64,000 nt of DNA from Schmidtea polychroa (taxonomy: Eukaryota): positions 25,050,001 to 25,114,000 of the forward strand of contig CM097885.1 of the NCBI GenBank assembly GCA_044892525.1. Reading direction: 5' to 3'. A program made the position numbers and the translations under genes. The notes under the pieces were generated by a model. That model did not search any database and was not told the DNA's origin. It saw only the letters and a list, made by a program, of their open reading frames with translations. Of the stretch, positions 23,938-64,000 are shown piece after piece (positions within the stretch are counted from its first letter, which is position 1; each line of letters starts with the position of its first letter).

Positions 23938-23961
23938 TTATTAATAATTTAAAATGAATCT

Positions 23962-25997: not shown

Positions 25998-26019
25998 TTT
26001 AATGGTATCAAAAATGGTA

Positions 26020-26613: not shown

Positions 26614-26628
26614 TTTTAAATAAATAAA

Positions 26629-28790: not shown

Positions 28791-28828
28791 TAGAGACATT
28801 TTAAAATGTTAAAATATCAGGGATTATA

Positions 28829-34380: not shown

Positions 34381-37300
34381 TAATTAATAAATTTATTTAT
34401 TTTATTATTTCATTTCGTCTTCTTATCGAAATTTTGGAATAAATATCAAATTTTGTTAATTTGGTTTTGATTTGAAAGTGCATATAATGGATTTTATAGT
34501 GCATATTTTCGGTTGCCCTAATAATTATGAATCCTTATTTTTTGAAGTAGCACCAAAATAACCTTTTTATTAAAATACATTTTTTATTATTAATTAATAA
34601 TGTACTTAATACATGTTTTTATAAAATTATCTTTTATTAATATTGTTGAGTTAGTGTTGTTAAAGTCGGTACTGACTCTGACTCTACATGCTCTTTATTT
34701 CAATTATTAATATAAGACTCAAAACAAAACACTATCAAATGTCAAAAAAATTAATAAAAAGTTCTCGATGAAACTTCTTTCGTTCTGCATTCTTATAAAA
34801 TTCGAAAGCAGGTGGCCCTGATTTGGCAATGATTTTTGTTTTCTTGTCAATTTTAATTAACACATTTAAGCTTGTTTTTCTACAATAACGATATTATAGT
34901 TTCCTCTCTTCAACAAAATAGCATTTTCCCCACAATGTCGCTTACTTTAATATTGTTGTTCCTTCCTATTAATCGGATAATTGAATTTCTATAGCACAAA
35001 GCTTTGGAAAACAAAATAGTTGAACAGGAGCTCTCTTGCCTTTGTTCAAAAATTTCGTTTCAATTTTTATCGATTTTGAAAAGAGACCTAATTTCATTAT
35101 CTTCTTGTTTGCTGCTCGGGTTTCCAAAATAACTAATAAATTATTGATTTATTTGTAATTAATGCGTATTTATTTAATATCCTTTTCTGGGGACCCATCA
35201 TCGATTTCTTATTAATATATCTGTGTTTGTTTCAACGTTCGCTATCCCTAGAATACGCATTTTGATTTTTTCAAATTTTAAATTAATTTCGGATTTTTAT
35301 AGGATTAAGAATTTTATTGATTTGCACTTTTAATATTTTGCACGTTCAAACTTATTTTAAGCTATTTTATACAAACCACAACAATATTTTAATTTTATTA
35401 GATAAACAATAATTAATTACATTAAAAACTAAAAATAATTATTAAATAAAATTGTAATATCGAATTGCCTGATAAAATGGCCACTGTATAAATTAATTCT
35501 AGGCTTGTAGTGTGTATCAATCCAACACATAATACAAAAATGTTATCGATCAAAATCCAGTATAGTTACACCAAAACGCAATAAGTTAAAGTCTAAATGA
35601 AAAAGCATAAAAGCGTCAAAATATAAAAAATAACAAATATTAAATGTATGTGTCACTAAAAAATGACGATAAATAAGGTTCTTTGACAATAAGTATGAAC
35701 CTTATTTTAAATATAAAATAGACATTACGAATTTTTTGAAGATTAACTTTATGTTTACACACCACCAATTATACCATACAAATAAATATGTAAATTTTTT
35801 TAGTTAACTTTTTTGTAGAATTTGTATCAAAAATTGTTGATTTCTACCAAGAAAAATGATTACATAAAATTTAAAAAATCAAAAACACTTAGAAATTCAT
35901 CTAATTAAAGCTTTTCATAAACATCCATTTTATTATAGTGATCTGTTTTACTTTGTTGCAGCAATATCAGTAGTGAATGCTGACTAAGATTTGATGAGTT
36001 CTAGTTAGTAGTGGATAAGTTAGGAGTATTGTTGGGCTAGAACTGACTTCTAGACCCAAAATCCTAATTGTGACTGAAATGTGTAGGTACACAGCAAGTA
36101 AAAAAGCAAAAAGTATAGCTAAATATTAAAAACTACACCAAATAAACAATGGTAATTAAAGGAGAAAGTAACAAAAAATAAACACAGAAATTAAATAAAA
36201 TTATACAAGCGCAAGAAGCTATGCAAAATCTAACTCAAAAATAACCAAATAAACATAGAGTTACAAGAAACAAACTCGAATAACTTAAAAGATGGTAAAA
36301 ACAGAAAAAAATTCCAGAAAAACCCAGAACATTCCATAAAAATGGCGATGACCATCATAAAAGCTACCTTAAACAATAAAATTTAGAAAAATAAATAAAT
36401 TAGTAATAAAAATAAAAATTCTTAAAAAGAATTTCATAAAACATCAATTAAAATAAAAATTAAATTAAAAGTAATATAGAATGTTCTGGAACCGTTCCAA
36501 ATCCATCATGGACGTAAAATTAATGAAAAATAATTAAAAATTTGAAATTTAGAAATAAAAACAAAAATTATGGCACAAAAATTGCCATTAAAAATATCAA
36601 AATCGCGAAATAGAAAATTCTGGAATAAAAAGAATTCGAGTTTGTTTTAATGCATCAATACATACACGTGTACAAAATAGGTATATATACTGACACGTTT
36701 CAGTCACAAGCATCACTTTTATGCCAATATTTTGTGAACAAAATTTTGTCAAGAAAACTAACAGTAAGTGGTTTTTCTTCTTTGAGTGATGTTCATCATT
36801 TTCAGTATTGATAATAATATTTGTATATGATTCATTAATGCAAATTATTTTAATGATTTTAATTGATTTTAACCCTCTCAAGACCTGACTTGTTTTTATT
36901 TTTTTTTGACTAATCAGCGGCGTCTTAGTGCGTCTCTATTTAGTCCTGCATTTAATATTAATTTTCAAATAACGATTTCACATGCAGACAGGCAATATCT
37001 CGTATATATTTTTTTTGTTCGGTCATCGGAGGTCGGCCACTTCATGGTTCTACCATGGAGTTGTGTCGATAAAACCCCTCCGCTATGGCTCTATATGCTT
37101 TATTTATCGGTCGACAGTGATGTTTCGACTCAACATTACAGTAGGGCTTGTCGTAGCGGTCACAGTGGGGCCGTGTAAGCAAGCATTCTTCCCGAGTAAA
37201 TGCAAACATAATTAAACTCAACACTAAAAATCTCTACAACACAAACATCCTAAGGTTAATAAACAGAGTAGAACTCAGACCTAAATTAATCACAACTCAA

Positions 37301-38143: not shown

Positions 38144-38213
<70 letters not shown>

Positions 38214-38218
<5 letters not shown>

Positions 38219-39270
38219 AGGTCTGTAAATTAAAATTAAAATTTAAATAAAATTTAGGATAATAATTCAAATGGAAAGTAAGCGAGGAAAAATGGCAAAT
38301 AAAAGCGGGATCGTGCACAGAATTAATAGTAAAGAAAAATGCGATGGAAGCAGTATTAGAAAATGCAAAAAGCAATTACGAAAGGCGAGAATCCGGAAAT
38401 CCGAGAAAAATCAATAAATGGAAAAATCATCGAAATCGAATGGGAAAAACGGGACAGGTATAGATTAGCTAATGGTCAACAAGATGATGGTTAGGGATTT
38501 ATCAGAAAAGGGTTAGGAAGGGTCGAAAAACATTCAAACGTATGAAAACAGAAAACGTTAATTAATTAATTAATTGGCTAATGGAAAACCCGAGCTAATG
38601 GGAAACCCGAGCCAATGGAGAACCCGAGAGATAAAGGAAACCCGAGCTGGGTAAACAAGAAGAAAGGCAAACAAAAGGAAGATTTGGGCCCATTAGTTTG
38701 ACACAATGATTAATGGGAAAAGAGTAAGGAGAAGATAACGCGCGTAGGAAGACCGGTAGGGCCATTAATTATCTGGATTCGTTGGACCATTATGGATGAC
38801 AGCCGAAGCAAACACGTAGGAGAAAATGTCAAACGAAAGATTGGCTCGGCAATAACCATTTGTCATCCTGATTTCGAGGAGTATATAAGCAAAGGGAAAA
38901 TCAGAGAAAATCGGCATTTTGCCTCAGCTAGGGTTCGAAGAATTAGACTGTAGGAAAAGTGGTAAACGAATTAGGGAAGTAGGGAAAAGAAGAAATAGAA
39001 TTAAGAATACGGAAAGGAGAAAAGAGATCAAACCAAACCGAAACCGAGGAAAACGAGAGTCAACAGAACTAAAGGATCAAAAGGTGAATATTGTTTGTTT
39101 GCAAAGCATCAACACCGAGCAGAGAATCGTGTAAAACTTTGATTGGTAATTGTAGAGTGATAATAAATTGTGAACCTGTTGTTTCAATATACGTTGGGTC
39201 GTTCATTGTTTTAATTTAAAGAACACCAGGAGTCAGAGAGAACCGACTTGAAATAATCCAAAACCCAACA
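38214..39270 (+). repeat. 5' LTR
   Basis: Direct repeat of 54567-55623. TATA-like TATATAA at ~38882 and AATAAA at ~39163. Confidence 0.95.
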
Positions 39271-39277
39271 TATATTC

Positions 39278-39295
39278 TGGTGAGCCCGACGTGAT
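39278..39295 (+). promoter_or_regulatory. Primer-binding site, tRNA-Trp type
   Basis: TGGTGAGCCCGACGTGAT differs at one position from the classical tRNA-Trp PBS TGGTGACCCCGACGTGAT. Confidence 0.8.
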
Positions 39296-39551
39296 TGAAA
39301 GTCGGAGGAAAAAATTATTGGAAGTTAGTGAAAAAGAAATTATTAAAAAAATTTAGTACCGACGCGATAGAGAGTCGGCTGAGAATCATTGAAAGTAGTG
39401 AAAATTTGTGAAAATTGTGCTAACGAGATTATTAAAGGCTATTATTGGGAGATTTGAAAGAAGTTGAAAAGTAATTTTAAATTATTGTTTAACGTTTGAA
39501 GTTTAGCTCAAAGTGAACCGATACAACCTCAGAAGCCAGAAACAAGTCCAA

Positions 39552-42500
39552 ATGGCAAATGATAATGCTGTTATGCCTCTCAATAGAGAGATGATTGATT
39601 TCGCAAGTTGCCAGAAATTACCCGTCAATCAATATGGAGGAGACCCTGTTGAATTTGCAGATTTCATGGGAGATTATTATATGTACGCCTCAGCATACGG
39701 ATGGACACAAGCCATTATGGTTCAGAGATTCCCACTCTATCTGAAGGGTGCGGCAAGAGAAGCCTGGCAGCAAGTCGACAAACGAAATGTTGGCAATGAT
39801 TGGACAAAATTGAAGGATGCAATGGCACTGAAACTGGTTGGTGGAGATATCAAAAGAATCATGCGACAGAAATTTTATAATCGAGTTCAAGGTCCAGATG
39901 AATCGGTCAGTGAGTTTGCTTATCATCTGACCACTTTAGCAGATAAAGCCTTTGAAGTTAAACCAGACCAAGCAGATATGGCCAAGCAGGTTAAAGAGCT
40001 ATTAGAAGATCAGTTTATAACCGGAGTCCACTCCGAAATCAAAAAAGCCCTATGTTATGTGGATTTTTCCAATTTTGATGAGCTCGTGAAGAAAGCCATG
40101 AAGATAGAGCTGAATTTAAAAAGTGCAAAAAGATCAGATGCTTTTGGAGTTAATGTGGAGAGACGTGAGCGATCAATTACGCCTGTGAGAGCACCATGGG
40201 ATGAAAAGAAAATAAATCAGATCAGTAGTCCAATTTTGAGACCAAATAATAGATTTCAAGCCAGTAGATCAGCCATGAACGTACAATCAAATGGACAGGT
40301 AAATAATCCTCAATGCGAACATTGCAAAAAGTCTGGACACTACTCAAATCAATGTTGGTTCAAATATGGGAAAAATCCCAGCCCTAACAAGAGATTCACA
40401 GAAAACAAACGGATCAGCAGTGATGTCGAATGCTATCGATGCGGAAAGAAAGGGCATATTAGCAGAAACTGTTTTACCAGATCAAGGTCATCGTCAACGT
40501 CACCTTCACCACAAAGGGACAAAGTGAATACAAATGGACAGATCCAATGTCATTCGTGCAAGGGATACGGCCACATGGCTCGATCATGCCCAAGGAACTC
40601 AGAAAGATTCAACAGACCTATCTTAAAGAAATCAATCAGATTCCAAGAAGATATGCCAAACACCAGTAACATGACATATGCTCAGAGAGAGGAATTTCAA
40701 GACAAAATGGAAAAGGAATTTCGAGAAATGCGACAGAAGCTAAACAAACTAGTGGCGAAATTTGAATCAGATGAGGAAACTGAATCTCATATGATAATTG
40801 GAACCGTGTCAGAAGGTGAGGGAAAACCTGCCACGAAAGTGCGAAAGATCTCTTCAGATGAGAATCCAACTGCACTGTTAGCCCGAGTTGAAAAATGGCT
40901 TGAGAAAATGGAAACTGACAACTCCCAGTTGAAACGATGGATCGCAGAACTCAGTGTGATGTCACTAACCCAAAGCGAACTAAAGAGAGCCATAAATTTA
41001 TGTGCAAAGTTATTCAAAGGAAACAGAGACGATGAGATACTTAAACAAATGCAAAAGTTTGGCAAGGCTTTACGGTTAACAAGGGATTTAGCTGATATCA
41101 TAGTGGAAACGACGGGACTTGATAATGTGAAGTGCCAATTCCGTGTAAATGCCTACGGAAAAATCAGAGAGTTAAAGGAGCGAATCCTGCGTCAATACAG
41201 TGGATGGCAAGTGCAATTAAAATTCGAAAATCGATGTCTGGAAGACGAAGAGTACTTAGTAGATTGCGGTCTGATACCAGGCTGGAAAAATAAAGTAAAT
41301 GTTATTAATGCTGTTAATACTTTGAATTCAGACAGACGAAATTGGGAAAAGATTCTAGCAGATTTACAAGATACCCTGTATGCAGGGAATAGAGATAAAA
41401 TTAATGCGAGTATCGACTTCATAATGAGCATCGAAATGGATCGAGACATGAAAGAAGGGTTGTTTGAATGCATCGTACCGTATACGAATAAACCGACGAG
41501 TTATCAGGCAAAACTAAAAGAGGTAATCCGAAAACTAGGACATGATTATGAGGCGGCAGACGATAGTGCGAAGTCTTTGATAATAGCGTTAAATATTGCG
41601 GATCAAAGGATTGAATATTATCAGGAACATTGGAGTGTAAAAGCAAAGAAAATACGACAAAAAGCAGCGGAGATATTAGGTAATGAAGGAATTATCGTGT
41701 TGACGTTCAAAGGACGAGAATTGGATGATGACGAATATTTATTAAACTACGGATGTAACCCAAATTGTATTAATAATGTGTACGCAACAAAACAAAGTGA
41801 TGAAATGGAAAGAGATGCGGTAATAGTACCGTTTTGGCCTCTATATGAGGAAATGGATAATAATAATGTGGAGATTAAAACTGAAGTTGTAGATGACCCA
41901 GGAGAAATTGATCAAGAAATTAATGAATTGCAGAGATTAGAAACAATGGAAAATGAGGAAATGGGATCGGAAAATGAAGTTGCAAGGGATATCGGGGAAA
42001 TGAGCACCGATAATAGGGTACTACCGAGCATAGATGAGATGAAGAGCGAAGAGAACTTCGTTGAAACGAAAAATGACATTGCGATATGTCGGAAAAAACA
42101 GAATGATGCGGAAATTGAATCTTTGAGTTTAGATAAATCGAGCGAAACTGAGCGTTTAGATGAATCAAACGAGACTGAACGAATATTAAAAAGTTTAGTT
42201 ACGGAATTGTACTTGTTAGATGAAACTGAAACAGAAGATGATACTTCGGAGGGGGAGGAAAGAGTTGTAAAAAGATTGGCAACGGAATTAAAGAGGAGAT
42301 TACCGTCGATAATTAAAAGAAATTATGAAGAAAAGGAATTTTGTGAGGAAGCAGTGATTGAGGACCTAACACGAACTGAGTTAGATCGAGATGTAATATT
42401 GACAGCGTTAGCCTATATAATATTGGAGATTGGTATTTATGGTTGTCTGGAAAGTGACAGTTCAAAATCATTGATAAAGAAAGCTACGGAAATGACGAAT

Positions 42501-45500
42501 AAATATTTGGCTAGGTGGATCGCAAACAATGGCGGATGGGAAAATTTGATACAAAAGGCTGAGAGCCCAAAAACCGAGACAGTGAGGAAAAAGGGAAAAC
42601 TCGCATTTCCATGGTTGATGATTTCTGTTATTATGTTATTGGGAATAATAAACACGACGAATTCATTGGTGGCATACGACTGCTCCCAAACCGAAATGGG
42701 AAGAGTATATTCGTTGGTAAACGTAGCAGAGTGTTCGGATGCATATCCAGTAAAATTTAAAGTGACAAATCCAGTAAAATATTATGTATATCAAGAATCG
42801 GGATTTCGACGAGCAAAGGTGAGAGAGTGTACAGTGAAACGAACTACTTTTGTATTTTATTGTGGAAAATGGAGTCACTCATCGATGGTGAAAATGCAAT
42901 CGATACCTAGACCGATAGAAATAATTCCAGAGAATTGTTTGGCAGCCTTTCAAACAGGACAGTTGAAAATCAATGCAGATCTCAAACTACAAGCAAAGCT
43001 TAACCACAAAATCCGTGAGACTGTAACCGTGCGAGGGATAATAAAGTCGAATGGTGATTGCCAAGGCGAGCCATACAAAGTAGACGATGCTATAATGGAC
43101 AAAGCCGTGGTTGTGGAAGAGTACATGTCAGAATTAAGAGAATTTGATGGATCATTTGATGATGATACTGGTAAACTACAAACACATCCATTCTGCAACA
43201 TGAAACAATCTAGCTGTCGGACAGGAGAATCAATCTTGGTGTACGATGTCGATACCAAAAAGTGCAATTTAGTGCAATTGAAGTCAATGAGTTTTAAAGA
43301 AATAACGGGAGAACAGATCAGGGAAAAGCCTGAGAAAATAAGAATGGATCCAGCAACGAGTACAACAACAAGAATCACACCTCTACGGATGAAAGATACT
43401 CCAACAGTGTTAATGTCAACCTCGGAGGAAGATGGGATGCGATTCCTGAGAAAAGAAACTAAAACAAAGTGTGGACAAAGTGTCTATGAGACAAATTATA
43501 AAGGTATATATGTATCTCAGAAGATGATTACAGAGGCCCAAACAAACATACATGCCGGAGATATTAAGTTGACAAATTACTTTAATAACAAAATAGATTA
43601 TTTATTTCACTTTGGTCAAAATACTGTTGAAAATGTGTACCGAGAAGTTATTATAAATGATTGCAATCTCAACAAAGAAATACTCCGAAATCGGATGGCA
43701 ATGGCTATAACCAATCCTAATTTGGTAGCACCAATGTTAATTGCAGAAAATGGAGTGTTCGCCAGAATTTTCGGTGAAGCACTATATAGCTATAAATGTA
43801 AAGCGGTACCAGTTAAACTGACAAAGTATGACCAATGCACCAACGAGTTACCAGTGAATTTAAATGGAAAGTTGCGATTTATGGAGCCTGTAACACGAAT
43901 CTTACTGGAAGAGGACGCGAAACCGAAAGTATTACAGTGCAATAGATTGTTAGCACCATTATACAGACTAACACCAGAATCTTGGATTGCATTACCAGAT
44001 CATCGAGAAGTAAAGACACCGGAAAACTTAGAATTGACAGAATTACAATATCTGGTAAATTTTACGTCGTTAGAAAAATTGTCGCAAAGTGGAATTTACT
44101 CGAACGAAGACATTGAGGAAGCTCGCAGAAACTTGTTATTTCCATCAAAGAAAGAAAGAGTAATAATGGAAATGGTAGATACAATTCTCCCAAGCGGAAG
44201 TGGGAAGGTAAATTATGAGTATTTGTTAACTCCAGATCATTACAAGAAAGCGACGTATAATACAATGAAAAAGATCTGGGGAAAGTTTATGTTCATTGGA
44301 CAAGCATGTGCCGGATTGATTGGAATTTATGTAATATGTGTTGTAATCAAAGTAATAATATCGCAGGCCCTATCAACACACAGATTATATGCGATCACAG
44401 GTTGGTCGTGGAAACTAGTAATTGGTTGCATACCATTATTGGCTAGATTCTTCATTACTCATCATCAATATCAGGAGTTGGAGATACTCAAGGCTCGAAT
44501 ATTAAAGAAGAAAAAGGTGAGCTACGCGAGTACAACCCCTTCAAGGGACGAGAACAATGACAATGACAACGAGGGTGATAGTGCACCGTTATATGTTGAC
44601 AATCAAGAACTAAGTGGAATGAATAAAGAAGCGTTAAGAACCTATCAAATCTTAAAAGAGCCACTGTTGAATGCGAGTAGCGTAGACACGTTTACAAAAC
44701 TGTGTATACCAAAATCATTTATGCAACCAGCACCAGTGTATCCAGTTGATCGATTACGAGAGATGAAACCAGTGGAAAATATCGCATTACAATGTGAAGG
44801 AATGGTAGGAGAGAGAATCGAGCCTTCTAGCGCAGAGATCGAGAGAAAAAATATGTTAGGCTTACCATGCAACTACTCAATGATGACATTAACAAAAAGA
44901 GGAAAGCAACCCCGAATATTTATACAAATGAACAAACATAAAGTGGAAGCTTTAGTCGATTCGGGATCTAGTCACACAATAGTATCGGAAAATGTATTAA
45001 ACGCGAAGGAAAAAATGCGAATGAAGCCTACCGGTGAAATAGTGAGGTCATTATCAAAAAATGAATTAAACATAATTGGACAACTTAACGTCATATTCCA
45101 TATTGGAGATCGAATAATAGCGCACGATGCGCTCATAATGAAGGGAAGTCCAGTACGATGTCTGATCGGCATGGATATATTAGAGCAGCTGGACGGAGTC
45201 TCACTTGAGTTAAAGACAGGTAATTTGATAGCAGGAGAAACAGGAGAAATAATTCACAGGGCAGGTGAAGTGTTTGTGAATCAGACATTGACAATACCAC
45301 CACAATCGGAGATGGTATATTGTGCAAATACCATGAGTGTGGATAATGGTGATTTTATATTCGAACCAAATCAAACGCTAGTCGAAAAATATGATTTACC
45401 GATATGTGACGAAGTTGTCAAAGTGGAAAATCAGATAGTACCAGTCCATATAACGAATAGCAGCAAAAAACCGGTTCAGCTACACCCAAAAACAAAATTG

Positions 45501-48500
45501 GGAAAATTATCAAAAATGTCTATTGAAACAAATTGTAAAATACCAAGAAACGTCAAGGTGTATAAGGAGCCTGAAGTGGTAAGCAATGATTTAAATGAGA
45601 TGCAGAAAAAGGAATTCACAAAACTGTTGAGGAAATACCGAGATATCTTTGCCAAACACGAATATGATTTGGGTTTAACCAATGTAATTGAGCATGAAAT
45701 ACCGTTATTAGACGAAACTCCAATAAAAATAAAGCCATACAGAATCCCCTACGTTCATCAAGATGAAAGCGATAGACAGATTACAGCAATGAAGGAATTT
45801 GGAATAATTCGAGATAGCGCGTCACCATTCTCCTCATCAATAGTGATAGTTAAGAAAAAAGATGGAGACTTACGATTTTGCGTAGATTATCGGAAGCTAA
45901 ATCAAGTTACAAGGAAAGACACTTATCCAATTCCGGTACCCCAAGAAATGTTTGATCAAATGGGAGAGGCACGATATTTCACAGTTATTGATTTAAACAA
46001 AGGGTACAATCAATTTAGAGTAAAAGAGGAAGATAGAGGAAAGACGGCGTTCTCGGATGGCAAAGGACTGTATGAGTTCAATGTGTTACCATTTGAATTA
46101 ACAGGAGCCCCAGCTACATTCCAACGAGGAATGAATTATGTGTTACGAGGAATTCGACATGCATTGGTATATATCGACGATATAATAATATTTTCAAATG
46201 ATTTTGAAGAACATCTGAAGGATGTAGAAACTGTATTTAAACGGCTCAAAAGTGCAAAATTAAAAATCAAACCATCGAAATGTGAATGGGGCAAAGCAGA
46301 AGTGATTTATGTAGGACATATAATATCACGGCGAGGGTTACAAACTAATCCAGATAACATCAAAAAAGTGGAAGAGTACCCAGTACCAAAAGATGCCGAT
46401 GAGGTTAGACAATTTTTAGGTTTGGCGAGCTATTACAGAAAATTTATAAAAGATTTCTCTCATATCGCACAACCATTGAATACGTTACTAAAGAAAAACA
46501 ATAAATTTATTTGGGGACAAATGCAACAAAACGCTTTCAATACATTAAAAGAGAAATTAGTAACAACTCCTATATTAAGATGTCCAGATTTTACAAAACA
46601 ATTTATCTTGATGACGGATGCAAGCAACGTTGCATTGGGTGCGGTATTGGGACAAAAATTTGAAGGTGAAAAGGACCATGTAATAGCATACGCAAGCAGA
46701 TCATTGAGGCCTCACGAGAAAAACTACTCAACGATTGAAAAGGAAACGTTAGCGTTAGTGTATGGAATTACTACTTTTAGACAATATTTATTGGGCAGAA
46801 AATTTACTGTTTATACAGATCATAATCCATTACAGTGGTTAATGAAACACAGAGATTCAGCCAGTAAGTTAATACGATGGTCAATTGCCCTCCAAGAATA
46901 CGACTTTGAGATTAAATACCGGACAGGTAAAGCTAACGCGAATGCAGATGCAATGTCGAGAATCCCAGAAAATAATAGTGAAGGGACACCTGGAAAAGTG
47001 GAAGGCACTATATTCGCAGCAATCAAAGCTGTTAATGATATGTCTGAACTTCAAAATGATCAGGAAAACGATAGTGAATTAAAACAATTTATGGAACAAG
47101 CGGTCAAAATAAGAAAAGAACAAGACTGGAAACGACTTACAGATGCAAACAGCAAATATGTAATTCATAATGGAATACTTAAATGTTGGAAAAATGGGGA
47201 AGCATTAATTATTATACCAGCCAAGCACAGAGATGCATTACTGATGCAGTATCATGATGGAGCGTTGGGAGGTCATTTGTCAACGCGCAAGACGCTATCA
47301 AGATTAAAATTGAAATACTTTTGGCCGACAATGGAACAAGACGTGAAAAATTGGTGTAACAGTTGCAAAGTATGCATCACCCGCAGAAATACTGGTAAAA
47401 AGATTAAAGTACCATTAAAACCGATGCCAGTACCTGCAGCACCAATGGAGATGACGGCAATGGATATTCTGGGACCATTACCGGAAACAACAAAAGGAAA
47501 CAAATACATTGTTGTTTTTTGTGACTACTTTACCAAATGGCCAGAAGCATACGCTATTCCAAACCAAAAAGCAGATACGATTGCTAGAATATTTGTGGAA
47601 AACATAATAGTTCGCTATGGTACTCCAAAGAAATTGTTAACTGATCAAGGAAAGAACTTTCAAAGCGAGATGTTTAAATCAATCACAGACTTATTTGGAA
47701 TTTGGAAATTGAATACGTCACCATATCATCCACAAACTGATGGATTGGTGGAACGATTTAATGGGACACTGATAAATATGATCTCATCATATGTGAATCG
47801 AAAACAGAAAGATTGGGACGACTTCATAAAGCCGTGTCTGTTTGCCTACAGAAATGCAGTAAATCAAAGTACAGGAGAGACCCCTTTTTACTTGATGTAT
47901 TTAAGGAAAAATAATATGCCGATTGATCTCAAATTCCAACCACCAATTTCACAATATATGGAGATACCCGATTATAAAGCATTGATGCAAGAAAGAATGC
48001 AGTCAGTATGGACTAAAGCCGGTTTGACAATAAAGCACAACCAAGAGAAATATAAAGAATCATACGATAAAAAAGCACATGCGCATGGCATAAAGATTGG
48101 AGATCTAGTATATCTGAACAGACCGGAACCTCTCAAAGGTTTATCGCCTAAATTGCAAAGACCATTTAAAGGACCCTACAAAGTGTGCGACACCACCGAA
48201 ACCAATTTGAAGTTATTACCATTCAGGAGTAAAAAGGCTAACCCGATGATTGTGCATGCAAATCGATGTAAACTAGTGCCAGAGGAAGATGAATCTAGAT
48301 ACCCCTTAAGATCCAAGCAGAATAAAGTAACGGGTCAAACAAAATTGAAACAGAAATTCACGAAAAATCCAACACCAGTCAGCTACATCAATAAGATATT
48401 ATATGTAGCAATAATGCTGATGTTAGTAACAGTTGCGAGCGGCAAAAAGATTGATTTACCATATGCGGTAAACAAAATCCGAGGAATGGAGAAAATACAT

Positions 48501-49160
48501 ATATATTCCACTCTAACAAATATAGTATGGAGCTGTAAATGCGAGATCGCAGACCAAATAGAAATTATTAATTTACTAGACAATACGGCACCAGTGGTAG
48601 AACTGAATTATGATAAAGATATAGTTGCGGTACGAAAGTTAAAGCCAAATTACAAATACCAATGGCTGTTGAGACAGAACATGTCAAAGTGGTACACGCA
48701 AATTCCGATAGAAGTGCACACAAAAGAGATGCGAAACTTGATCGAGATAGAACCAGAGATAAACGGAATCAATATATATTGGAAGCCAGTGGACTTGGTG
48801 AAAGTACGACTCACATTTCAAGGGTTAAATGTCGACACCCTTAACTCGCGAAAATCATTTATCCGCTACGAGAAATTGAAAATGAATCAAAATTGTTCAG
48901 TTAATGCAAACTACTACGAGAACATATGCCTCGAAAATGGAACGGTAGTGAGAAACCAATGGTCACGATTTAAGAGTGAGACCCAGTCTATCTATCTCAG
49001 AGACGAGTCAAATCGTATAACCCTGAGTGTTGGAAATGGACCGGTAACGATATATAGAAAATCAGGAAATGATGAAAGAGTTGTTATTATCTACAAACAA
49101 AAAACCCTGACTATATTAGATACCGGTAATCATTTTTTACACTTTACACTTCTGATTTAG
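39552..49160 (+). CDS. Single polyprotein: Gag(3xCCHC)-UBL-UBL-Bcl-2-like-signal-class III glycoprotein-TM-PR-RT-RNase H-IN-signal-ectodomain
   Basis: First ATG at 39552. CCHC knuckles ~40314-40589, UBL-like 41097-41307 and 41577-41790, WIANNGGW 42516-42539, AYDC...YCGKWSH glycoprotein from 42666, TM ~44277-44455. Then LVDSGS 44958, YIDD 46170, TDAS RNase H, HHCC and D,D,E integrase, GPY 48171 and a second hydrophobic signal ~48396-48443. Confidence 0.95.
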   Translation: MANDNAVMPLNREMIDFASCQKLPVNQYGGDPVEFADFMGDYYMYASAYGWTQAIMVQRFPLYLKGAAREAWQQVDKRNVGNDWTKLKDAMALKLVGGDIKRIMRQKFYNRVQGPDESVSEFAYHLTTLADKAFEVKPDQADMAKQVKELLEDQFITGVHSEIKKALCYVDFSNFDELVKKAMKIELNLKSAKRSDAFGVNVERRERSITPVRAPWDEKKINQISSPILRPNNRFQASRSAMNVQSNGQVNNPQCEHCKKSGHYSNQCWFKYGKNPSPNKRFTENKRISSDVECYRCGKKGHISRNCFTRSRSSSTSPSPQRDKVNTNGQIQCHSCKGYGHMARSCPRNSERFNRPILKKSIRFQEDMPNTSNMTYAQREEFQDKMEKEFREMRQKLNKLVAKFESDEETESHMIIGTVSEGEGKPATKVRKISSDENPTALLARVEKWLEKMETDNSQLKRWIAELSVMSLTQSELKRAINLCAKLFKGNRDDEILKQMQKFGKALRLTRDLADIIVETTGLDNVKCQFRVNAYGKIRELKERILRQYSGWQVQLKFENRCLEDEEYLVDCGLIPGWKNKVNVINAVNTLNSDRRNWEKILADLQDTLYAGNRDKINASIDFIMSIEMDRDMKEGLFECIVPYTNKPTSYQAKLKEVIRKLGHDYEAADDSAKSLIIALNIADQRIEYYQEHWSVKAKKIRQKAAEILGNEGIIVLTFKGRELDDDEYLLNYGCNPNCINNVYATKQSDEMERDAVIVPFWPLYEEMDNNNVEIKTEVVDDPGEIDQEINELQRLETMENEEMGSENEVARDIGEMSTDNRVLPSIDEMKSEENFVETKNDIAICRKKQNDAEIESLSLDKSSETERLDESNETERILKSLVTELYLLDETETEDDTSEGEERVVKRLATELKRRLPSIIKRNYEEKEFCEEAVIEDLTRTELDRDVILTALAYIILEIGIYGCLESDSSKSLIKKATEMTNKYLARWIANNGGWENLIQKAESPKTETVRKKGKLAFPWLMISVIMLLGIINTTNSLVAYDCSQTEMGRVYSLVNVAECSDAYPVKFKVTNPVKYYVYQESGFRRAKVRECTVKRTTFVFYCGKWSHSSMVKMQSIPRPIEIIPENCLAAFQTGQLKINADLKLQAKLNHKIRETVTVRGIIKSNGDCQGEPYKVDDAIMDKAVVVEEYMSELREFDGSFDDDTGKLQTHPFCNMKQSSCRTGESILVYDVDTKKCNLVQLKSMSFKEITGEQIREKPEKIRMDPATSTTTRITPLRMKDTPTVLMSTSEEDGMRFLRKETKTKCGQSVYETNYKGIYVSQKMITEAQTNIHAGDIKLTNYFNNKIDYLFHFGQNTVENVYREVIINDCNLNKEILRNRMAMAITNPNLVAPMLIAENGVFARIFGEALYSYKCKAVPVKLTKYDQCTNELPVNLNGKLRFMEPVTRILLEEDAKPKVLQCNRLLAPLYRLTPESWIALPDHREVKTPENLELTELQYLVNFTSLEKLSQSGIYSNEDIEEARRNLLFPSKKERVIMEMVDTILPSGSGKVNYEYLLTPDHYKKATYNTMKKIWGKFMFIGQACAGLIGIYVICVVIKVIISQALSTHRLYAITGWSWKLVIGCIPLLARFFITHHQYQELEILKARILKKKKVSYASTTPSRDENNDNDNEGDSAPLYVDNQELSGMNKEALRTYQILKEPLLNASSVDTFTKLCIPKSFMQPAPVYPVDRLREMKPVENIALQCEGMVGERIEPSSAEIERKNMLGLPCNYSMMTLTKRGKQPRIFIQMNKHKVEALVDSGSSHTIVSENVLNAKEKMRMKPTGEIVRSLSKNELNIIGQLNVIFHIGDRIIAHDALIMKGSPVRCLIGMDILEQLDGVSLELKTGNLIAGETGEIIHRAGEVFVNQTLTIPPQSEMVYCANTMSVDNGDFIFEPNQTLVEKYDLPICDEVVKVENQIVPVHITNSSKKPVQLHPKTKLGKLSKMSIETNCKIPRNVKVYKEPEVVSNDLNEMQKKEFTKLLRKYRDIFAKHEYDLGLTNVIEHEIPLLDETPIKIKPYRIPYVHQDESDRQITAMKEFGIIRDSASPFSSSIVIVKKKDGDLRFCVDYRKLNQVTRKDTYPIPVPQEMFDQMGEARYFTVIDLNKGYNQFRVKEEDRGKTAFSDGKGLYEFNVLPFELTGAPATFQRGMNYVLRGIRHALVYIDDIIIFSNDFEEHLKDVETVFKRLKSAKLKIKPSKCEWGKAEVIYVGHIISRRGLQTNPDNIKKVEEYPVPKDADEVRQFLGLASYYRKFIKDFSHIAQPLNTLLKKNNKFIWGQMQQNAFNTLKEKLVTTPILRCPDFTKQFILMTDASNVALGAVLGQKFEGEKDHVIAYASRSLRPHEKNYSTIEKETLALVYGITTFRQYLLGRKFTVYTDHNPLQWLMKHRDSASKLIRWSIALQEYDFEIKYRTGKANANADAMSRIPENNSEGTPGKVEGTIFAAIKAVNDMSELQNDQENDSELKQFMEQAVKIRKEQDWKRLTDANSKYVIHNGILKCWKNGEALIIIPAKHRDALLMQYHDGALGGHLSTRKTLSRLKLKYFWPTMEQDVKNWCNSCKVCITRRNTGKKIKVPLKPMPVPAAPMEMTAMDILGPLPETTKGNKYIVVFCDYFTKWPEAYAIPNQKADTIARIFVENIIVRYGTPKKLLTDQGKNFQSEMFKSITDLFGIWKLNTSPYHPQTDGLVERFNGTLINMISSYVNRKQKDWDDFIKPCLFAYRNAVNQSTGETPFYLMYLRKNNMPIDLKFQPPISQYMEIPDYKALMQERMQSVWTKAGLTIKHNQEKYKESYDKKAHAHGIKIGDLVYLNRPEPLKGLSPKLQRPFKGPYKVCDTTETNLKLLPFRSKKANPMIVHANRCKLVPEEDESRYPLRSKQNKVTGQTKLKQKFTKNPTPVSYINKILYVAIMLMLVTVASGKKIDLPYAVNKIRGMEKIHIYSTLTNIVWSCKCEIADQIEIINLLDNTAPVVELNYDKDIVAVRKLKPNYKYQWLLRQNMSKWYTQIPIEVHTKEMRNLIEIEPEINGINIYWKPVDLVKVRLTFQGLNVDTLNSRKSFIRYEKLKMNQNCSVNANYYENICLENGTVVRNQWSRFKSETQSIYLRDESNRITLSVGNGPVTIYRKSGNDERVVIIYKQKTLTILDTGNHFLHFTLLI

Positions 49161-49516
49161 AGACGGCATGGGAATTAACAGTTAAATATCAGCGATGGAT
49201 AACCGATCCAGGCAGATGGCAAACAGTTTTCGTGGAAGTCAAGACAATCAATGAATCGAAACGAAAATCATATACAACCACATCACCTTTCCAATTACCG
49301 ACCCAAGAGACGACAAAACCTAACTCAAACAAACTAAGGATGATAAATTCGGATTTGACAGTCAACTATTGTGAATATCTTATTTACATTTTAATAACAG
49401 GTTTTCTCATCTTATCAATAACATTCATAATCATCACCATCTTGATATGTGTAAAAGAGAGACAGCTAACTATCCTTCAACCACCATCATATTCATATTA
49501 TGAGACAAGACTATAA
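49130..49516 (+). CDS. -1-frame extension of the polyprotein: Ser/Thr-rich stalk, TM helix and PPSY tail
   Basis: The frame opens just before T TTT TTA (49133-49139) and reads LYTSDLETAWELTVKYQRWITDPGRWQTVFVEVKT...LIYILITGFLILSITFIIITILIC...QPPSYSYYETRL. Confidence 0.7.
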   Translation, partial: SFFTLYTSDLETAWELTVKYQRWITDPGRWQTVFVEVKTINESKRKSYTTTSPFQLPTQETTKPNSNKLRMINSDLTVNYCEYLIYILITGFLILSITFIIITILICVKERQLTILQPPSYSYYETRL

Positions 49517-49694
49517 ATTGTGATCTGCATGAATAGTGTAAAAAAAATATATATTACATTTATATTAACAATGTGCATGTTTTATAAGTACCATAGGATG
49601 AACTGTGTAATTTGTTTGAGATTCGAAGTGAGGTGTTGATGCTTTGCGAATAAAGAGTGATACAAAAAAAATGACTATCATTTAATTTCAGAGA

Positions 49695-49940
49695 ATGCAA
49701 GAAGCCTCGGAGATGACATGCAAAGAGTGTAAAACAAGTACGCAAGAACTAAAACAAAAGTTTCGTAGCATGCAGGGCAGAATAACAGATTTGGAGGAAG
49801 AAAACTTCCGTCTGAAAAGGCGGTTGGACCGTTTGGAAATCTTATTGTTTCAACACGAAGCCGATTTCGCGATGTTTCGAATGAGAGTAGAAGAAATGGA
49901 GGAATCGGAAGATGATGGTGAGATAAATCAATTAGACTAA
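49695..49940 (+). CDS. Small coiled-coil accessory ORF (CxxC plus leucine-zipper-like)
   Basis: CKEC followed by ITDLEEENFRLKRRLDRLE heptads. Acceptor-like TTTAATTTCAG ends 4 nt before the ATG. Confidence 0.55.
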   Translation: MQEASEMTCKECKTSTQELKQKFRSMQGRITDLEEENFRLKRRLDRLEILLFQHEADFAMFRMRVEEMEESEDDGEINQLD

Positions 49941-50401
49941 AAAAATTAATTATTTAAACGGACCCTGTTGGTGTTTTTTCGTCCTCGAGAAAAACAAATA
50001 ATAGTTAAATAATTATAAGTAAATTAACAAATAATCAAATGAATAAACAAATTGATATAAATAAATAAGTAAAAAAGTGATAAATTAAATGAATGAATAA
50101 TAGATAAAAATGAACAAAGTTAAACGAGCAAATAGAATAACTCAAATAAATGTTGCAAATAATGAAATGACTACCTTAAATGAGCATTAGAAATAAATAA
50201 TATGGCTGATTAGTAATTAATGAATTAGCATAACTATATAGCAATGGGTAAACCACTGGGGCGAGAGAACAAAATTATAAATAAGTAAGGAATAATTTCA
50301 CATTAGTAGTAACAAAAACTATTCGCGAAGAGGGACACAATTACCCCACCCTTTCTAGCATAAATTAAAAACAAAGGTATGCTGAACATTTATTCAAAGT
50401 T

Positions 50402-50644
50402 TTATTCGTCATCAGAGTCCAACAGAACGGGACTTTGGATGCCACAATCCCATTCCCTGCGTACATTGCAAGGCGGGCGTCTTTCAAACCTACTGCCTGT
50501 ATCCACACAGGCAAAGGTACGTTTCAATCCCTTTCGACGCGGTGACAAAGGGACCCTGAAAAAGAAATTAAAAAACCTGTTAGTATGGCAGTCAAATAAC
50601 CATTGCATAACATCGAGATGCTCAAACTTAGGTTCTGGGACAGC
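50402..50644 (-). CDS. Candidate terminal exon of an antisense accessory gene
   Basis: Polypyrimidine tract plus TTTTAG acceptor at 50645, 80 open codons (AVPEPKF...LLDSDDE), AATAAA overlapping the stop, and higher GC than the flanks. Confidence 0.45.
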   Translation of the reverse strand, partial: AVPEPKFEHLDVMQWLFDCHTNRFFNFFFRVPLSPRRKGLKRTFACVDTGSRFERRPPCNVRREWDCGIQSPVLLDSDDE

Positions 50645-52078
50645 CTAAAATAGTAAGGGTTGAAAAGAAAAATGAAATAAATACTATGTAAAACTCCGTA
50701 CCATGGCGCCCTCGACAAATAATTAGTGCAGGGAAGTAATTGATTTTAAGAATTACGTAATAAATTAATAAGTATAAATACGGCTAAAATTGTCAGAAAA
50801 ATACGAGTAGCTGTAATTAGAGGTTTGCTTTTAGTATAAATACAAAATCAAAAATCAAAAATATATGACCCAAAACATGAGTGTGGTATAGATAGTTGCA
50901 TAAACAAATTAACGAATTAAAATTAAAAAGTAAATAAGTTAATTTAATAAGCATCAATAAGTTAATTTAATAAGCAACACGAGCACTTGCAATCACCGGG
51001 GTTTGGCTACCCTGGACAGCGATTGCAAATGTTCGGTTGCTATAAGGGAACGCATTACTAATAGTGAGGACAGCATGGTAAAAAGAATCACAAAAACAAA
51101 AAAAAAATAATAATAAAAGACAAATAATCACTTACGTCCATAGTAATTGAGGGATGGCGGTACTAAAATTCAAAAAAAAAAATGAAAAAGAAAAATAAAA
51201 TATAAAATGCTTACTTCAAGATTGGCAAGACAAAACTAACGAAAAGTGGTAAAGCAGAAACTTATATAGAACGCTTAATAGTACGGGCTACGTTAAGAAA
51301 CCACAGGGTAATTAATTATAGAGCCTATCAGTATCGGCTACGTCAAAAACCGCAGGATAAGTAAATATTCATTCGGAATATTAATGTTCATCGCAGATAC
51401 CTTATCAGGCTGAGTAAACAAAGTGATATCATGAGTCGGTCGGTGCGGTGGGAGATTAACTTTTTACCATGCTGCGAGCGAAATAAACCAATAAGTTATT
51501 AATAACAAAAATTATTTTTAAATTATAATATTAATAATAATGGTAATAATGATGAAAGAAAAAACATAAACAAAAAGAATAAATGAATTACCTTGCGACT
51601 GGGAATAAATTAGACAAATATTTTGCACATAAAAATCGATCAAACCGTAAAGACACACACACACAGACAGACACACAAGCATATCCCATTAACTGCTCAA
51701 CTCTGTTATTAACCACAATTTTATCCATATTCTTGGTAAACCGTATTCATCTTGAACAATAACAACAACCACAGCTAATATCATAGTATAAGAAATTTTC
51801 AATAAATTTTACTGTTGATTTCCACCAAAGTCGCTAGTCTAATCAATTAATGAATTCATAAACTCGCACACAAAAATTGTAAAAATGCAAATTGTAACAA
51901 AATATAATTTAATCAGATACTATTAAAAAAATTTTCTTTTTATTCTCACCACATAACCAAAATAGGAGCAATATACACTTTCAAAATGCAGGAATATCTT
52001 TTTAATATCCTGAAATAATAAACTAAATGTACTCTGTTATATCCTAAAGTAATTAATTTCAATACTCTGAAACAACAA

Positions 52079-52365
52079 TAACCTTACCAGACTGTCGTTA
52101 GTCTACTTGATTTATTAATTTTTAATAGACGTCCCGATAACCTTACCAGACTGTCGTTAGTCTACTTGATTTTTAATAGACGTCCAGACAAAAAATGATT
52201 TACCTCAATTAATAGACGTCCAGATAAAAAGTATTTCCCTTAATAAACGTCCCGATAAAAAATTATTTACCTCAATTAATAGACGTCCAGATAAAAATTA
52301 TTTCCCTCAATTAATAGACGTCCCGATAAAAATTATTTCCCTCAATTAATAGACGTCCCGATAAT
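52079..52365. repeat. Tandem ~30-35-bp repeats with core AATAGACGTCC(C/A)GATAAAA, preceded by a ~35-bp duplication
   Basis: About seven GACGTCC/AACGTCC cores, read directly. Confidence 0.85.
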
Positions 52366-52483
52366 TACGATAATTGGAGTAGGATTGTGATAAATAATAA
52401 TAATATTGATAAAATAATAATATTGATAATAATAATGGTGATGATAGTGGTAATAACAGCAATAATTATAACAATATATAATG

Positions 52484-52534
<51 letters not shown>

Positions 52535-54566
52535 TTGATAGTAGTAATAATAATAGTAGTAGTAGTAGTAATTTTTCAAGTTTATTTCTCATTTAAATTG
52601 ATATCTCTAACATTTCAGGGAACTGCAAATATTATTATTCTTTGGTAATTTTCAAATAATTTCCAATTATAATTTGCAAGCATTACACAAATGCCTAAAT
52701 ATTATTTTAAATGCTCAATTATATCCACTCAAATCCTCATGCTAGTAAATAGCAAGATTAATAACAATTTTATACAAATCATTGAATTGCTTTATAATTG
52801 CCGATATTTCATAACATCACATATAATTGTTACATAAAATGAATAAATAATAAACCTACTTCAATCTTAAAAATATAAATTAATAAACCCAAAGAAATTT
52901 GTTAAAATAATGAAAAAAAAAACATTTTTTTTCATTGTTTTATTGAACCTTCGATTTGAGCTGGAATTCTGAGAGTTGATCGACAGATTGTAAATATATA
53001 TCTCAAACCTGTGCTAATTTTTATACAATTAATACAAAAAAAAAATTAATCTAACCATTGTGTTTCTTCTTCGACGTTTGGTAGCATACATGGTTTTTAT
53101 AACCCAATCGTCAACCATAGATAAGTGTGAATGAAATTTAAGCCAAACTCTAATATAAAAAAAAAATAAATATATTTTTTTTCGTTAAACTCGTTTAAGT
53201 GTTCTCTATGAGTTATTTATTGGCCACAAAAATGTCAGTTGATTCCTGTGTTGAGAATATCTTGGATTGTTCCGGAAATTCGAATGAAGCAATAGATTGA
53301 TTACTTAATGTACGGAAAAAAAATAATGAAACAAAATATTGATATTTCATCATTTAAGGACTCAGAAAGAGCAGAAAGTTATGACACGACAAAATCTCGA
53401 CCAATGAAAATTCCTTTCTCACCTCGATTTGCCAGTGTTTTTGGTCATGCGTATTGTCGAATCTTCTTACTCTGCAACACCACACGAAGGAATTTTTCTC
53501 TCCATTCTTTCTTCTCAATAGATAAAAAAAAATAATATTTTTCTAAATTCATAATTATTTTAGTTCTATTTTAAATATTTTAATTTCGTCATTTAAAATG
53601 GTTATATCAAATTTATTCCAAATTATATTTTAATAAAAATCAAAAAAAAAATAAAATTTTCTTATTAAAATTTATGAAATTTATTTCCTTAAAAATAAAA
53701 TTAATTTTGATATTTTGTTTAAATATCTCTATTAAATAGAAAGAAAAATTTCATTCAATGGAAAATAGAAACAGAAAGACAGTTTATATTTCAAATTTCC
53801 CAGAAACAATAAGTGAAAATGATCTCAAATGCATTGCATCATTAAATAGTTGCAGCAATATTTATTTATTCACAGCTAATTGTTTATATTAAGATCTGAA
53901 TAGAGTTGCATAATACTACTTACATAGGGTGTTAAATTAGCAGTACTCGTGCTATTTTCTGCATACATACCCAGATTAGTGAGCAAAAATCCCATAACTC
54001 CATGATTTAACCAGATTTTATCGATTCTTTAATTTCTGTTAAAACAGAATTACTTTTGAGATTCAGGTCCGCCATATTTTTACATATTTTCAAAATTAAC
54101 TCAATCATTTTTGGTTGGCTAATATTTTAAGCAGTTTGCCAATAAATTATTAGTATTATTGTAATTATAACCGTATTTTCAGTCTTTGGGGTAAAAGTAA
54201 TTTCCTGCATGATGTGCACACATATTCTCATGTCGACAAACCACAATGATCTACAGGAGACCTAAACCACTTATTATAGTTGCTTTCTAGTATAAATAAT
54301 TTAGAAATAACATTCCATTATTTATAAAGGTTTAATTTCTGTTATCCCTACCTACCCCCAATATCCTTCCCCAAAAGATAGAAAAATATATTCAGGAAAA
54401 TTGCCAGCTTATTAAAGAATATCTTTTAATATATAATATTTAAATTAAAAATAACAATAATAATGGTATTTGTGTTGATAGGAATAATAATGACATTTAA
54501 TGTTAACAAAACTTTCCATTAAAACACAAATTTCGAGGACGAAAAAATTTTTTAAGGGGGGAGATA

Positions 54567-55618
54567 TGTTGAGGTCTGTAAATTAAAATTAAAATTGAAA
54601 TAAAATTTAGGATAATAATTCAAATGGAAAGTAAGCGAGGAAAAATGGCAAATAAAAGCGGGATCGTGCACAGAATTAATAGTAAAGGAAAATGCGATGG
54701 AAGCAGTATTAGAAAATGCAAAAAGCAATTACGAAAGGCGAGAATCCGGAAATCCGAGAAAAATCAATAAATGGAAAAATCATCGAAATCGAATGGGAAA
54801 AACGGGACAGGTATAGATTAGCTAATGGTCAACAAGATGATGGTTAGGGATTTATCAGAAAAGGGTTAGGAAGGGTCGAAAAACATTCAAACGTATGAAA
54901 ACAGAAAACGTTAATTAATTAATTAATTGGCTAATGGAAAACCCGAGCTAATGGGAAACCCGAGCCAATGGAGAACCCGAGAGATAAAGGAAACCCGAGC
55001 TGGGTAAACAAGAAGAAAGGCAAACAAAAGGAAGATTTGGGCCCATTAGTTTGACACAATGATTAATGGGAAAAGAGTAAGGAGAAGATAACGCGCGTAG
55101 GAAGACCGGTAGGGCCATTAATTATCTGGATTCGTTGGACCATTATGGATGACAGCCGAAGCAAACACGTAGGAGAAAATGTCAAACGAAAGATTGGCTC
55201 GGCAATAACCATTTGTCATCCTGATTTCGAGGAGTATATAAGCAAAGGGAAAATCAGAGAAAATCGGCATTTTGCCTCAGCTAGGGTTCGAAGAATTAGA
55301 CTGTAGGAAAAGTGGTAAACGAATTAGGGAAGTAGGGAAAAGAAGAAATAGAATTAAGAATACGGAAAGGAGAAAAGAGATCAAACCAAACCGAAACCGA
55401 GGAAAACGAGAGTCAACAGAACTAAAGGATCAAAAGGTGAATATTGTTTGTTTGCAAAGCATCAACACCGAGCAGAGAATCGTGTAAAACTTTGATTGGT
55501 AATTGTAGAGTGATAATAAATTGTGAACCTGTTGTTTCAATATACGTTGGGTCGTTCATTGTTTTAATTTAAAGAACACCAGGAGTCAGAGAGAACCGAC
55601 TTGAAATAATCCAAAACC

Positions 55619-55623
<5 letters not shown>
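54567..55623 (+). repeat. 3' LTR
   Basis: Direct repeat of 38214-39270, preceded by the PPT and followed by (TA)n. Confidence 0.95.
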
Positions 55624-63942: not shown

Positions 63943-64000
63943 GTAATTGTTTTATTTAATCATATTAACTACTTATTAATTTAATCAGTAATACTAAATT

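What the first reader, a model, noticed from the sequence alone, without database searches (positions are those of the whole stretch)
38214..55623. Giant young Gypsy 'retrovirus' with its envelope gene embedded between gag and pol in one polyprotein
Seen: 17.4-kb element with near-identical LTRs, PBS and PPT, and one ~3200-aa ORF. A signal-peptide-led, cysteine-rich, TM-anchored ~600-aa glycoprotein lies after Gag and before PR-RT-RH-IN. Known: retroviruses and env-bearing errantiviruses place env 3' of pol, usually on a spliced mRNA. Inference: the polyprotein would thread the ER membrane repeatedly (cytosolic Gag-accessory, luminal glycoprotein, cytosolic Pol, luminal second ectodomain). It would be processed by signal peptidase plus the element's protease, more like an RNA-virus polyprotein. 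This may be an undescribed enveloped retroelement lineage.
Basis: partly seen in the sequence, partly recalled or inferred. Interest (0 to 1): 0.95.

Follow-up and report, generated by a model that had tools for sequence, protein, structure and literature searches.

The report
Known planarian gag-env-pol retroelement copy
This is a young copy of an already catalogued flatworm retrovirus-like element whose envelope gene sits between gag and pol in one giant protein; the layout is published, and only a second membrane protein at its end appears to be undescribed.

Summary
The element spans 17,410 bp, with 1,057-bp LTRs (2 mismatches), a tRNA-Trp PBS and a PPT. One 3,217-codon frame reads Gag, 2x(helical+ubiquitin-like), Bcl-2-fold, signal, gB-type fusion glycoprotein (PF24664, E 7e-93), TM, PR-RT-RH-IN, second signal and ectodomain. 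It is a family trait: 70 of 70 scored genome matches are 98-100% identical, and two further families here plus seven outside proteins carry env ahead of protease in one frame.

It is not an undescribed lineage. Arkhipova & Yushenova 2019 (PMC6431247) reported in-frame env between gag and pol, after Ubl and BCL2 motifs, in planarian Burro. Chary & Hayashi (PMC13524379) list GAG-ENV-POL elements in flatworms, nematodes and bryozoans; their Smed_errantivirus_2 differs from this env at 6 of 251 residues (by eye).

Not found in what I read: a second type-I membrane protein after integrase (7 of 7 families reaching that far; weak FN3 leads), the PBS, the 4-bp TSD, and the topology model. That model (signal peptidase plus own protease, Pol tethered to Env's tail) is inference. 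This copy is frameshifted near the ORF's end. The scan earlier noted a Burro element elsewhere in this genome, not this family.

The parts
38210..38213 (+). Left copy of the probable 4-bp target-site duplication (TATA), inside a (TA)n microsatellite
   Evidence: 9 of 10 other copies show a 4-bp duplication. Inside a TA run it cannot be proven for this copy.
38214..39270 (+). 5' LTR, 1,057 bp; TATA-like box at 38882, AATAAA at 39162
39278..39296 (+). Primer-binding site for tRNA-Trp(CCA), 7 nt downstream of the LTR end
39507..49160 (+). Single polyprotein frame, 3,217 codons, first ATG at 39552
39552..40589 (+). Gag: capsid-like region and three CCHC knuckles (aa 270, 309, 348)
   Evidence: Pfam PF03732 and PF00098; motif scan
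40863..41315 (+). Module 1: unidentified helical domain plus ubiquitin-like domain
   Evidence: Pfam ubiquitin E 9.4e-6; 8-sequence profile hits ISG15/ubiquitin/NEDD8 structures, best E 1.5e-4
41343..41795 (+). Module 2: tandem duplicate of the helical+Ubl module
   Evidence: Alignment; conserved in the sister family
42159..42581 (+). Bcl-2-fold domain ending in a BH2-like motif, directly before the env signal
   Evidence: Profile vs PDB: Bcl-xL E 1.1e-5; AF2 pLDDT 77; VIA-align Z 14.9, rmsd 2.8, 134 aligned, to Hydra Bcl-2-4
42600..42665 (+). Internal signal sequence, basic residues before it, predicted signal-peptidase site after aa 1053
   Evidence: small residues at -3 and -1 in 13 of 15 proteins listed (rule recalled)
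42666..44303 (+). Env ectodomain, class III (HSV gB / chuvirus G type), 14 Cys
   Evidence: PF24664 E 6.7e-93; matches Smed_errantivirus_2 domain I at 245 of 251 residues by eye
44304..44360 (+). Env transmembrane anchor
44361..44903 (+). About 180-aa predicted cytosolic tail linking Env to protease
   Evidence: Inference from topology; no further hydrophobic segment
44904..45197 (+). Aspartic protease (DSG)
45849..46901 (+). Reverse transcriptase (YIDD) and RNase H
47214..48206 (+). Integrase: H2C2, core, GPY module
48378..49157 (+). Second signal-like segment and ectodomain (FN3-like, weak evidence) of a post-integrase membrane protein; truncated in this copy
49130..49516 (+). Rest of the second membrane protein with its TM, out of frame in this copy (frameshift near the end of the ORF)
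49695..49940 (+). Small 81-aa ORF (CxxC, coiled coil, acidic end) behind a splice-acceptor-like sequence
   Evidence: 80 of 81 identical in 2 of 3 other copies, disrupted in the third; only weak coiled-coil Pfam hits
49941..54553 (.). AT-rich 4.6-kb 3' region without a long ORF
   Evidence: 15 LTR pairs have a median span of about 17.3 kb (counted), so the window's overall length is typical
54554..54564 (+). Polypurine tract
54567..55623 (+). 3' LTR

Best explanation
This is a recently inserted copy of a high-copy planarian Ty3/Gypsy (Metaviridae) family, Smed_errantivirus_2 of Chary & Hayashi, a compact relative of Burro.

Shown: gene order, domain identities, multi-copy status, the 4-bp TSD in other copies, and the tRNA-Trp PBS.

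Inferred: one mRNA gives one polyprotein. Gag, the Ubl modules and the Bcl-2-fold domain are made in the cytosol. An internal signal sends the gB-type ectodomain into the ER lumen, and signal peptidase cuts it free, which could leave the Bcl-2-fold domain held by that hydrophobic segment much as cellular Bcl-2 proteins are held by a tail anchor. The Env TM stops transfer, so PR-RT-RH-IN are cytosolic and at first tethered to Env's tail. A second signal/TM pair after integrase makes another type-I membrane protein. The element's own protease trims the cytosolic parts. Gag, Env and Pol are thus made 1:1:1 with no frameshift or splice. Pol can reach particles only through the Env tail or after release, because it is cut off from Gag. 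Env most likely serves enveloped cell-to-cell spread, and the Bcl-2-fold domain probably dampens apoptosis in the producer cell. This copy lacks the in-frame anchor of the second membrane protein.
For: Domain order. 70 of 70 scored matches are 98-100% identical, with 13 of 70 in frames of 3,200 codons or more. Accessory region, env and complete protease are all covered, in order, in 26 of 29 other loci. 11 of 15 LTR pairs chosen by LTR contain one of the 70 scored env hits. The same order occurs in a sister family (48% identity) and a third family. All 7 outside proteins carry env plus protease in one chain, 4 of them through RT and IN. Env is 70% identical to the sister family, against PR 56% and RT-RH 78%. 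The env ectodomain has 14 Cys in 9 of 10 proteins measured; the tenth was mis-bounded. Shared substitutions among 26 copies have dN/dS 0.15 against 0.39 for private ones, Fisher p 2e-5. Bcl-2 fold. Prior descriptions. A single-ORF Gag-Pol-Env retroelement with an active fusogen is a precedent (Atlas virus, PMC9094657 passages).
Against: No protein, particle or cleavage data exist here. Topology rests on hydropathy and a crude insertion-energy scale, in which the env TM is marginal and the window's signal segments do not pass; SignalP and DeepTMHMM were not available. The 26 copies were ranked by env protein similarity, so env dN/dS is biased low, and the Bcl-2 and Ubl regions have too few substitutions to test (p 1.0 and 0.18). 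The Bcl-2 Pfam scores are all below the curated cut-off, and the BH2 motif was not found in 5 outside homologs, so the domain is optional. No named reference RT was available for the tree.
Confidence: 0.85

Rival explanations
1. The gene order is real, but Env is not used for infectious enveloped particles. It serves as a membrane anchor or spacer that brings Gag and Pol to ER-derived membranes, or fuses neighbouring cells, and the element spreads inside cells such as neoblasts.
For: No furin site and only one sequon. Chary & Hayashi state that the entry mechanism of gB-carrying elements is unknown. Planarian stem cells are themselves heritable, so no soma-to-germline jump is needed (own knowledge).
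Against: The whole ectodomain, with a constant cysteine count, is kept across families at about 40% identity, more than a spacer needs. A deleted sister copy lacking RT-RH-IN keeps env, PR and the second membrane protein in frame.
Confidence: 0.25
2. The long frame is only the template. Env or Pol is made mainly from spliced or otherwise recoded RNAs, as in retroviruses and insect errantiviruses.
For: A splice-acceptor-like sequence precedes the small 3' ORF, so the element may splice. 1:1 Gag:Pol production is unusual for Ty3/Gypsy (own knowledge).
Against: The frame stays open across all junctions in three families here and in 4 full-length outside proteins, which recoding would not require.
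Confidence: 0.12
3. A one-off capture of a viral glycoprotein in a single copy, or an assembly artefact.
For: None found.
Against: 70 of 70 scored copies, three families in this genome, and the published catalogue.
Confidence: 0.01

Closest known systems
Platyhelminthes_Rhabditophora_Smed_errantivirus_2 (Chary & Hayashi, eLife RP108449, PMC13524379)
   Same: Env domain I differs at 6 of 251 residues by eye; HSV/gB-type env, GAG-ENV-POL order, 215 copies listed. Very likely the same family.
   Different: Their table gives no LTR and no PBS for it. The main text has 0 hits for 'polyprotein', 'splic', 'Bcl' and 'fibronectin'.
Burro1/GYPSM1 giant planarian Gypsy elements (Arkhipova & Yushenova 2019, PMC6431247 section 7)
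   Same: One polyprotein: Gag with three CCHC knuckles, Ubl, BCL2-like, env with mononegavirus fusion-glycoprotein hits, PR-RT-RH-IN.
   Different: 17.4 kb and about 3,300 aa, against over 30 kb and 4,873 aa. No MATH, BIR, ankyrin or Smc hit; dUTPase-like segment not detected by Pfam. That section mentions no post-integrase membrane protein.
Nematode and bryozoan GAG-ENV-POL metaviruses (Sacco et al. 2022, known to me only as cited in PMC13524379)
   Same: Gene order and gB-type env.
   Different: They sit in separate host-associated POL clades according to PMC13524379; whether they are single frames could not be read.
Atlas virus (Belpaoviridae, PMC9094657)
   Same: Env is encoded inside a single stop-free polyprotein.
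   Different: BEL/Pao, gag-pol-env order, class II fusogen at the C-terminus, so Pol is not placed behind a membrane anchor.

Membership tests
Ty3/Gypsy (Metaviridae) | LTRs with TG...CA ends, PBS, PPT, short TSD | tested here: met
Ty3/Gypsy (Metaviridae) | Pol order PR-RT-RH-IN with H2C2 and GPY/F integrase modules | tested here: met
Ty3/Gypsy (Metaviridae) | RT phylogeny within Ty3/Gypsy reference clades | tested here: inconclusive
   The tree held no named references; PMC13524379 states that all its elements were classed Ty3/gypsy by HMM
Smed_errantivirus_2 (Chary & Hayashi) | Env sequence identity to the listed representative | tested here: met
   245 of 251 residues of domain I, compared by eye with supplement file 3
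Smed_errantivirus_2 (Chary & Hayashi) | Over 98% nucleotide identity across over 98% of the three ORFs to their bait | not testable with these tools
   Their bait DNA is not held here
HSV/gB-type (class III) env | Family profile match, signal-ectodomain-TM layout, conserved cysteines | tested here: met
   PF24664 E 6.7e-93
HSV/gB-type (class III) env | Class III trimeric fold | not tested
Burro-like architecture | Single frame with Ubl, BCL2-like and env between gag and PR | tested here: met
Burro1 proper | Over 30 kb, about 4,900-aa ORF with MATH, BIR and ankyrin domains | tested here: not met
   17.4 kb, 3,217 codons, none of these Pfam hits
Burro-like architecture | dUTPase-like segment between PR and RT | tested here: inconclusive
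   No PF00692 hit at E up to 1; the paper used HHpred
Bcl-2 family | Bcl-2 helical fold with BH2 motif | tested here: met
Bcl-2 family | BH3 binding or anti-apoptotic activity | not testable with these tools
   Needs a binding or cell assay; the canonical BH1 NWGR (recalled) is not conserved in alignment A3
Fibronectin type III (post-integrase protein) | Profile or fold match | tested here: inconclusive
   Atlas leads 0.82-0.84; Pfam fn3 E 0.05 in one family only; no FN3 in the PDB profile search
Infectious endogenous retrovirus | Enveloped particles that transmit between cells | not testable with these tools
   No data

The most novel reading that the evidence does not exclude
These flatworm elements are enveloped viruses with two surface proteins cut from one polyprotein: a gB-type fusogen in the middle and a fast-evolving FN3-like type-I protein after integrase that acts as attachment or trigger partner, in the role gD/gH-gL play for herpes gB. 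Pol is packaged through the Env tail instead of through Gag, and the Bcl-2-fold domain uses the env signal as its membrane anchor.
Probability: 0.25. Interest if true: 0.65.

Novelty: already known. Interest (0 to 1): 0.3.

Why it matters
The headline architecture is published, so this copy is no discovery. It remains a useful handle on an open question that PMC13524379 states itself: how gB-only retroelements enter cells. The conserved post-integrase membrane protein is a concrete candidate partner. The layout also forces an unusual solution to Pol packaging and to Gag:Pol ratios. A retroelement-borne Bcl-2 fold in a young, high-copy family may bear on cell survival in planarian tissues.

Tried and rejected
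RNA evidence: no RNA holder listed. Of 4 runs laid, run X6 (RNA only a guess) has one 10.6-kb contig bridging 39409-49945, but X9 (probably DNA) looks the same. No joint was shown for the RNA-guess runs among the 15 listed; 59 more were not shown. This gives no conclusion on expression or splicing.

First Bcl-2 model from 2 sequences: pLDDT 55, uninformative fold searches; replaced by a 10-sequence model.

TA-microsatellite targeting: rejected. 0 of 10 other copies sit in a (TA)n run, and one sits in (TTA)n.

Spliced antisense gene in the 3' region (a Burro feature I recall, unverified): minus-strand donor and exon counts were not above shuffles, p 0.21 and 0.30. Four small frames there have no Pfam hit.

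Homologs of the post-integrase protein among proteins of 2,509-5,000 aa: none (weak evidence). Its PDB profile search gave only chance-level hits.

The helical domain before each Ubl stayed unidentified.

No Burro1 sequence was obtained for direct comparison: the stretch fetched held no long ORF, and two genome searches returned no answer.

Grohme et al. 2018 and Sacco et al. 2022 were not held. They, Repbase entries and the figures of both papers read may already show the post-integrase membrane protein or name this family.

Trees of 8 RT-RH and 11 env rows are poorly resolved and have no named references.

The protease-site motif scan did not run, because the script stopped early.
Full report
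OBSERVATION. The element runs from 38214 to 55623. Its LTRs are 1,057 bp and differ at 2 positions, 0.19%. A 19-nt PBS, 7 nt after the 5' LTR, is complementary to tRNA-Trp(CCA) genes found in this genome. A PPT precedes the 3' LTR. Nine of 10 other copies have a 4-bp target duplication; the tenth has a clipped LTR end. One stop-free frame of 3,217 codons carries Pfam hits in the order Gag, CCHC, Monjiviricetes_fusion (E 6.7e-93), protease, RT, RNase H, integrase. The glycoprotein is only modestly cysteine-rich (14 in 546 aa), with one sequon and no furin motif.

FAMILY. The genome (781 Mb, four large contigs) gave 3,236 env candidates. All 70 scored are 98-100% identical; 8 of 70 lie in frames of 3,334 codons and 13 of 70 in frames of 3,200 or more. 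In 29 other loci, the Bcl-2-like region is fully covered in 28 and the protease in 27; these loci were chosen by env, so env-less copies could not appear. As a partial control, 15 LTR pairs among 40 LTR hits have a median span near 17.3 kb, and 11 of 15 contain one of the scored env hits; the other four were not examined. Twenty-six copies (30 loci less the window and three near-duplicates) are 98.3-99.7% identical to the window. Shared substitutions have dN/dS 0.15 against 0.39 for private ones; the env part of this is biased by how the loci were ranked. The window copy departs from 8 of 8 others near aa 3215, and 3 of 3 read further end in a TM plus 21 residues, so this copy is frameshifted near the end of its ORF. 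A sister family (48% identity; env 70%, RT-RH 78%) and a third family (3,053 codons; env 40%) have the same layout. Seven outside proteins of 2,099-4,029 aa carry env and protease in one chain, four of them through RT and IN.

ACCESSORY DOMAINS. Between Gag and env lie two tandem modules, each a helical domain plus a ubiquitin-like domain. An acidic linker follows, then a Bcl-2-fold domain. For the last, 33 of 34 weak phmmer hits are named Bcl-2 proteins, and a 10-sequence profile hits Bcl-xL at E 1.1e-5. The AF2 model has pLDDT 77; its best structural match is Hydra Bcl-2-4, Z 14.9, rmsd 2.8, 134 aligned. The first 36 rows are Bcl-2-family or viral Bcl-2-fold entries (by title and recall), and the first unrelated row has Z 5.7. 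Foldseek rows are all Bcl-2 family but none reach E 0.001. The BH2 motif was not found in 5 outside homologs. After integrase, all 7 families whose sequence reaches that far show a signal-like segment and a C-terminal TM. These are the window family via other copies, the sister, the third family, P0004, P0007, P0009 and P0010; the signal was judged by eye in the sister and third family. The ectodomains vary in length and barely align. FN3 identity is only a lead (against 103).

MECHANISM. Shown: order and identities. Inferred: Gag-Ubl-Bcl-2 is cytosolic; an internal signal with basic residues before it and small residues at -3 and -1 in 13 of 15 proteins (rule recalled) translocates the ectodomain; one TM returns the chain to the cytosol. 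A crude insertion-energy scan (scale recalled) found one marginal segment after env in 5 of the 9 proteins where it could be scored, none in 4, and never two. Pol therefore starts life on Env's tail, separated from Gag by signal peptidase. A second signal/TM pair yields another surface protein. The element's protease trims the cytosolic parts. I give 0.85 to family identity with a single membrane-threaded polyprotein, about 0.6 to enveloped spread (rival 0.25 for non-infectious use of Env), and 0.25 to the two-protein entry model.

PRIOR WORK. [quoted passage not shown] PMC13524379 (abstract; section 5 part 1, section 9 part 1, sections 11 and 14; passages; rows of supplement files 2 and 3) reports GAG-ENV-POL gB-type elements in Nematoda, Bryozoa and Platyhelminthes, six of them in Schmidtea mediterranea. 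Smed_errantivirus_2 (215 copies) differs from the window's env domain I at 6 of 251 residues by eye. The sister and third families resemble their numbers 1 and 3 more loosely. PMC9094657 (passages) gives a single-frame Gag-Pol-Env precedent. PMC8532177 (passages) shows BURRO1 transcripts under SMEDWI-2 control; that is a relative, not this family. PMC11410931 (passages) added nothing specific. Grohme 2018 and Sacco 2022 were not seen. That the post-integrase protein is not in print rests on word searches in two papers and library searches. Figures and the unread papers could overturn it.

VERDICT. The feature is real and was read correctly by the first stage, but it is already known at the level of both architecture and family. 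What may be new is incremental: the PBS and TSD, a confirmed Bcl-2 fold abutting the env signal, and a lineage-wide second membrane protein. Interest 0.3.

Noticed in passing
window 17347-30277: Polinton/Maverick with 248-nt terminal inverted repeats (98%), pPolB, packaging ATPase, integrase, double-jelly-roll capsid and a PLA2-like ORF.
   Followed up: partly
window 14525-32452: A second, short-LTR Gypsy element on the minus strand (118-nt repeats, 99%) appears split by the Polinton: protease and an upstream ORF on one side, RT-RH-IN on the other.
   Followed up: partly
window 9092-9589 and 36135-36631; 33239-33712: Degenerate long inverted repeats and a DUF659 ORF suggest an older DNA transposon enclosing the nested Gypsy and Polinton.
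   Followed up: no
L031:1077-5375: A sister-family copy has lost RT-RH-IN by an in-frame deletion but keeps Bcl-2-like, env, protease and the whole second membrane protein in one frame.
   Followed up: partly
P0004, P0007, P0008, P0009: Outside homologs carry two to four protease-like domains, including one after integrase; P0005 ends in ankyrin repeats.
   Followed up: no
G000 genome-wide: Dozens of dispersed Bcl-2 profile hits: many in frames of up to about 3,050 codons (third family), and another multi-copy set in short frames with an internal TAG, probably a different repeat.
   Followed up: partly
L067 (G000:C4 near 55.02 Mb): A long tandem array of tRNA-Trp(CCA) genes with a 284-bp period, the tRNA that matches this element's PBS.
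   Followed up: no
window 53758-53892: A short frame in the element's 3' region looks by eye like the start of an RRM domain; no Pfam hit.
   Followed up: partly
window 50345-50555 and 51136-51162, minus strand: GC-richer exon-like stretches with splice-like flanks; not above shuffle expectation.
   Followed up: partly
window 62605-63984: ORF with a Methyltransf_32 domain, probably a host gene exon.
   Followed up: no
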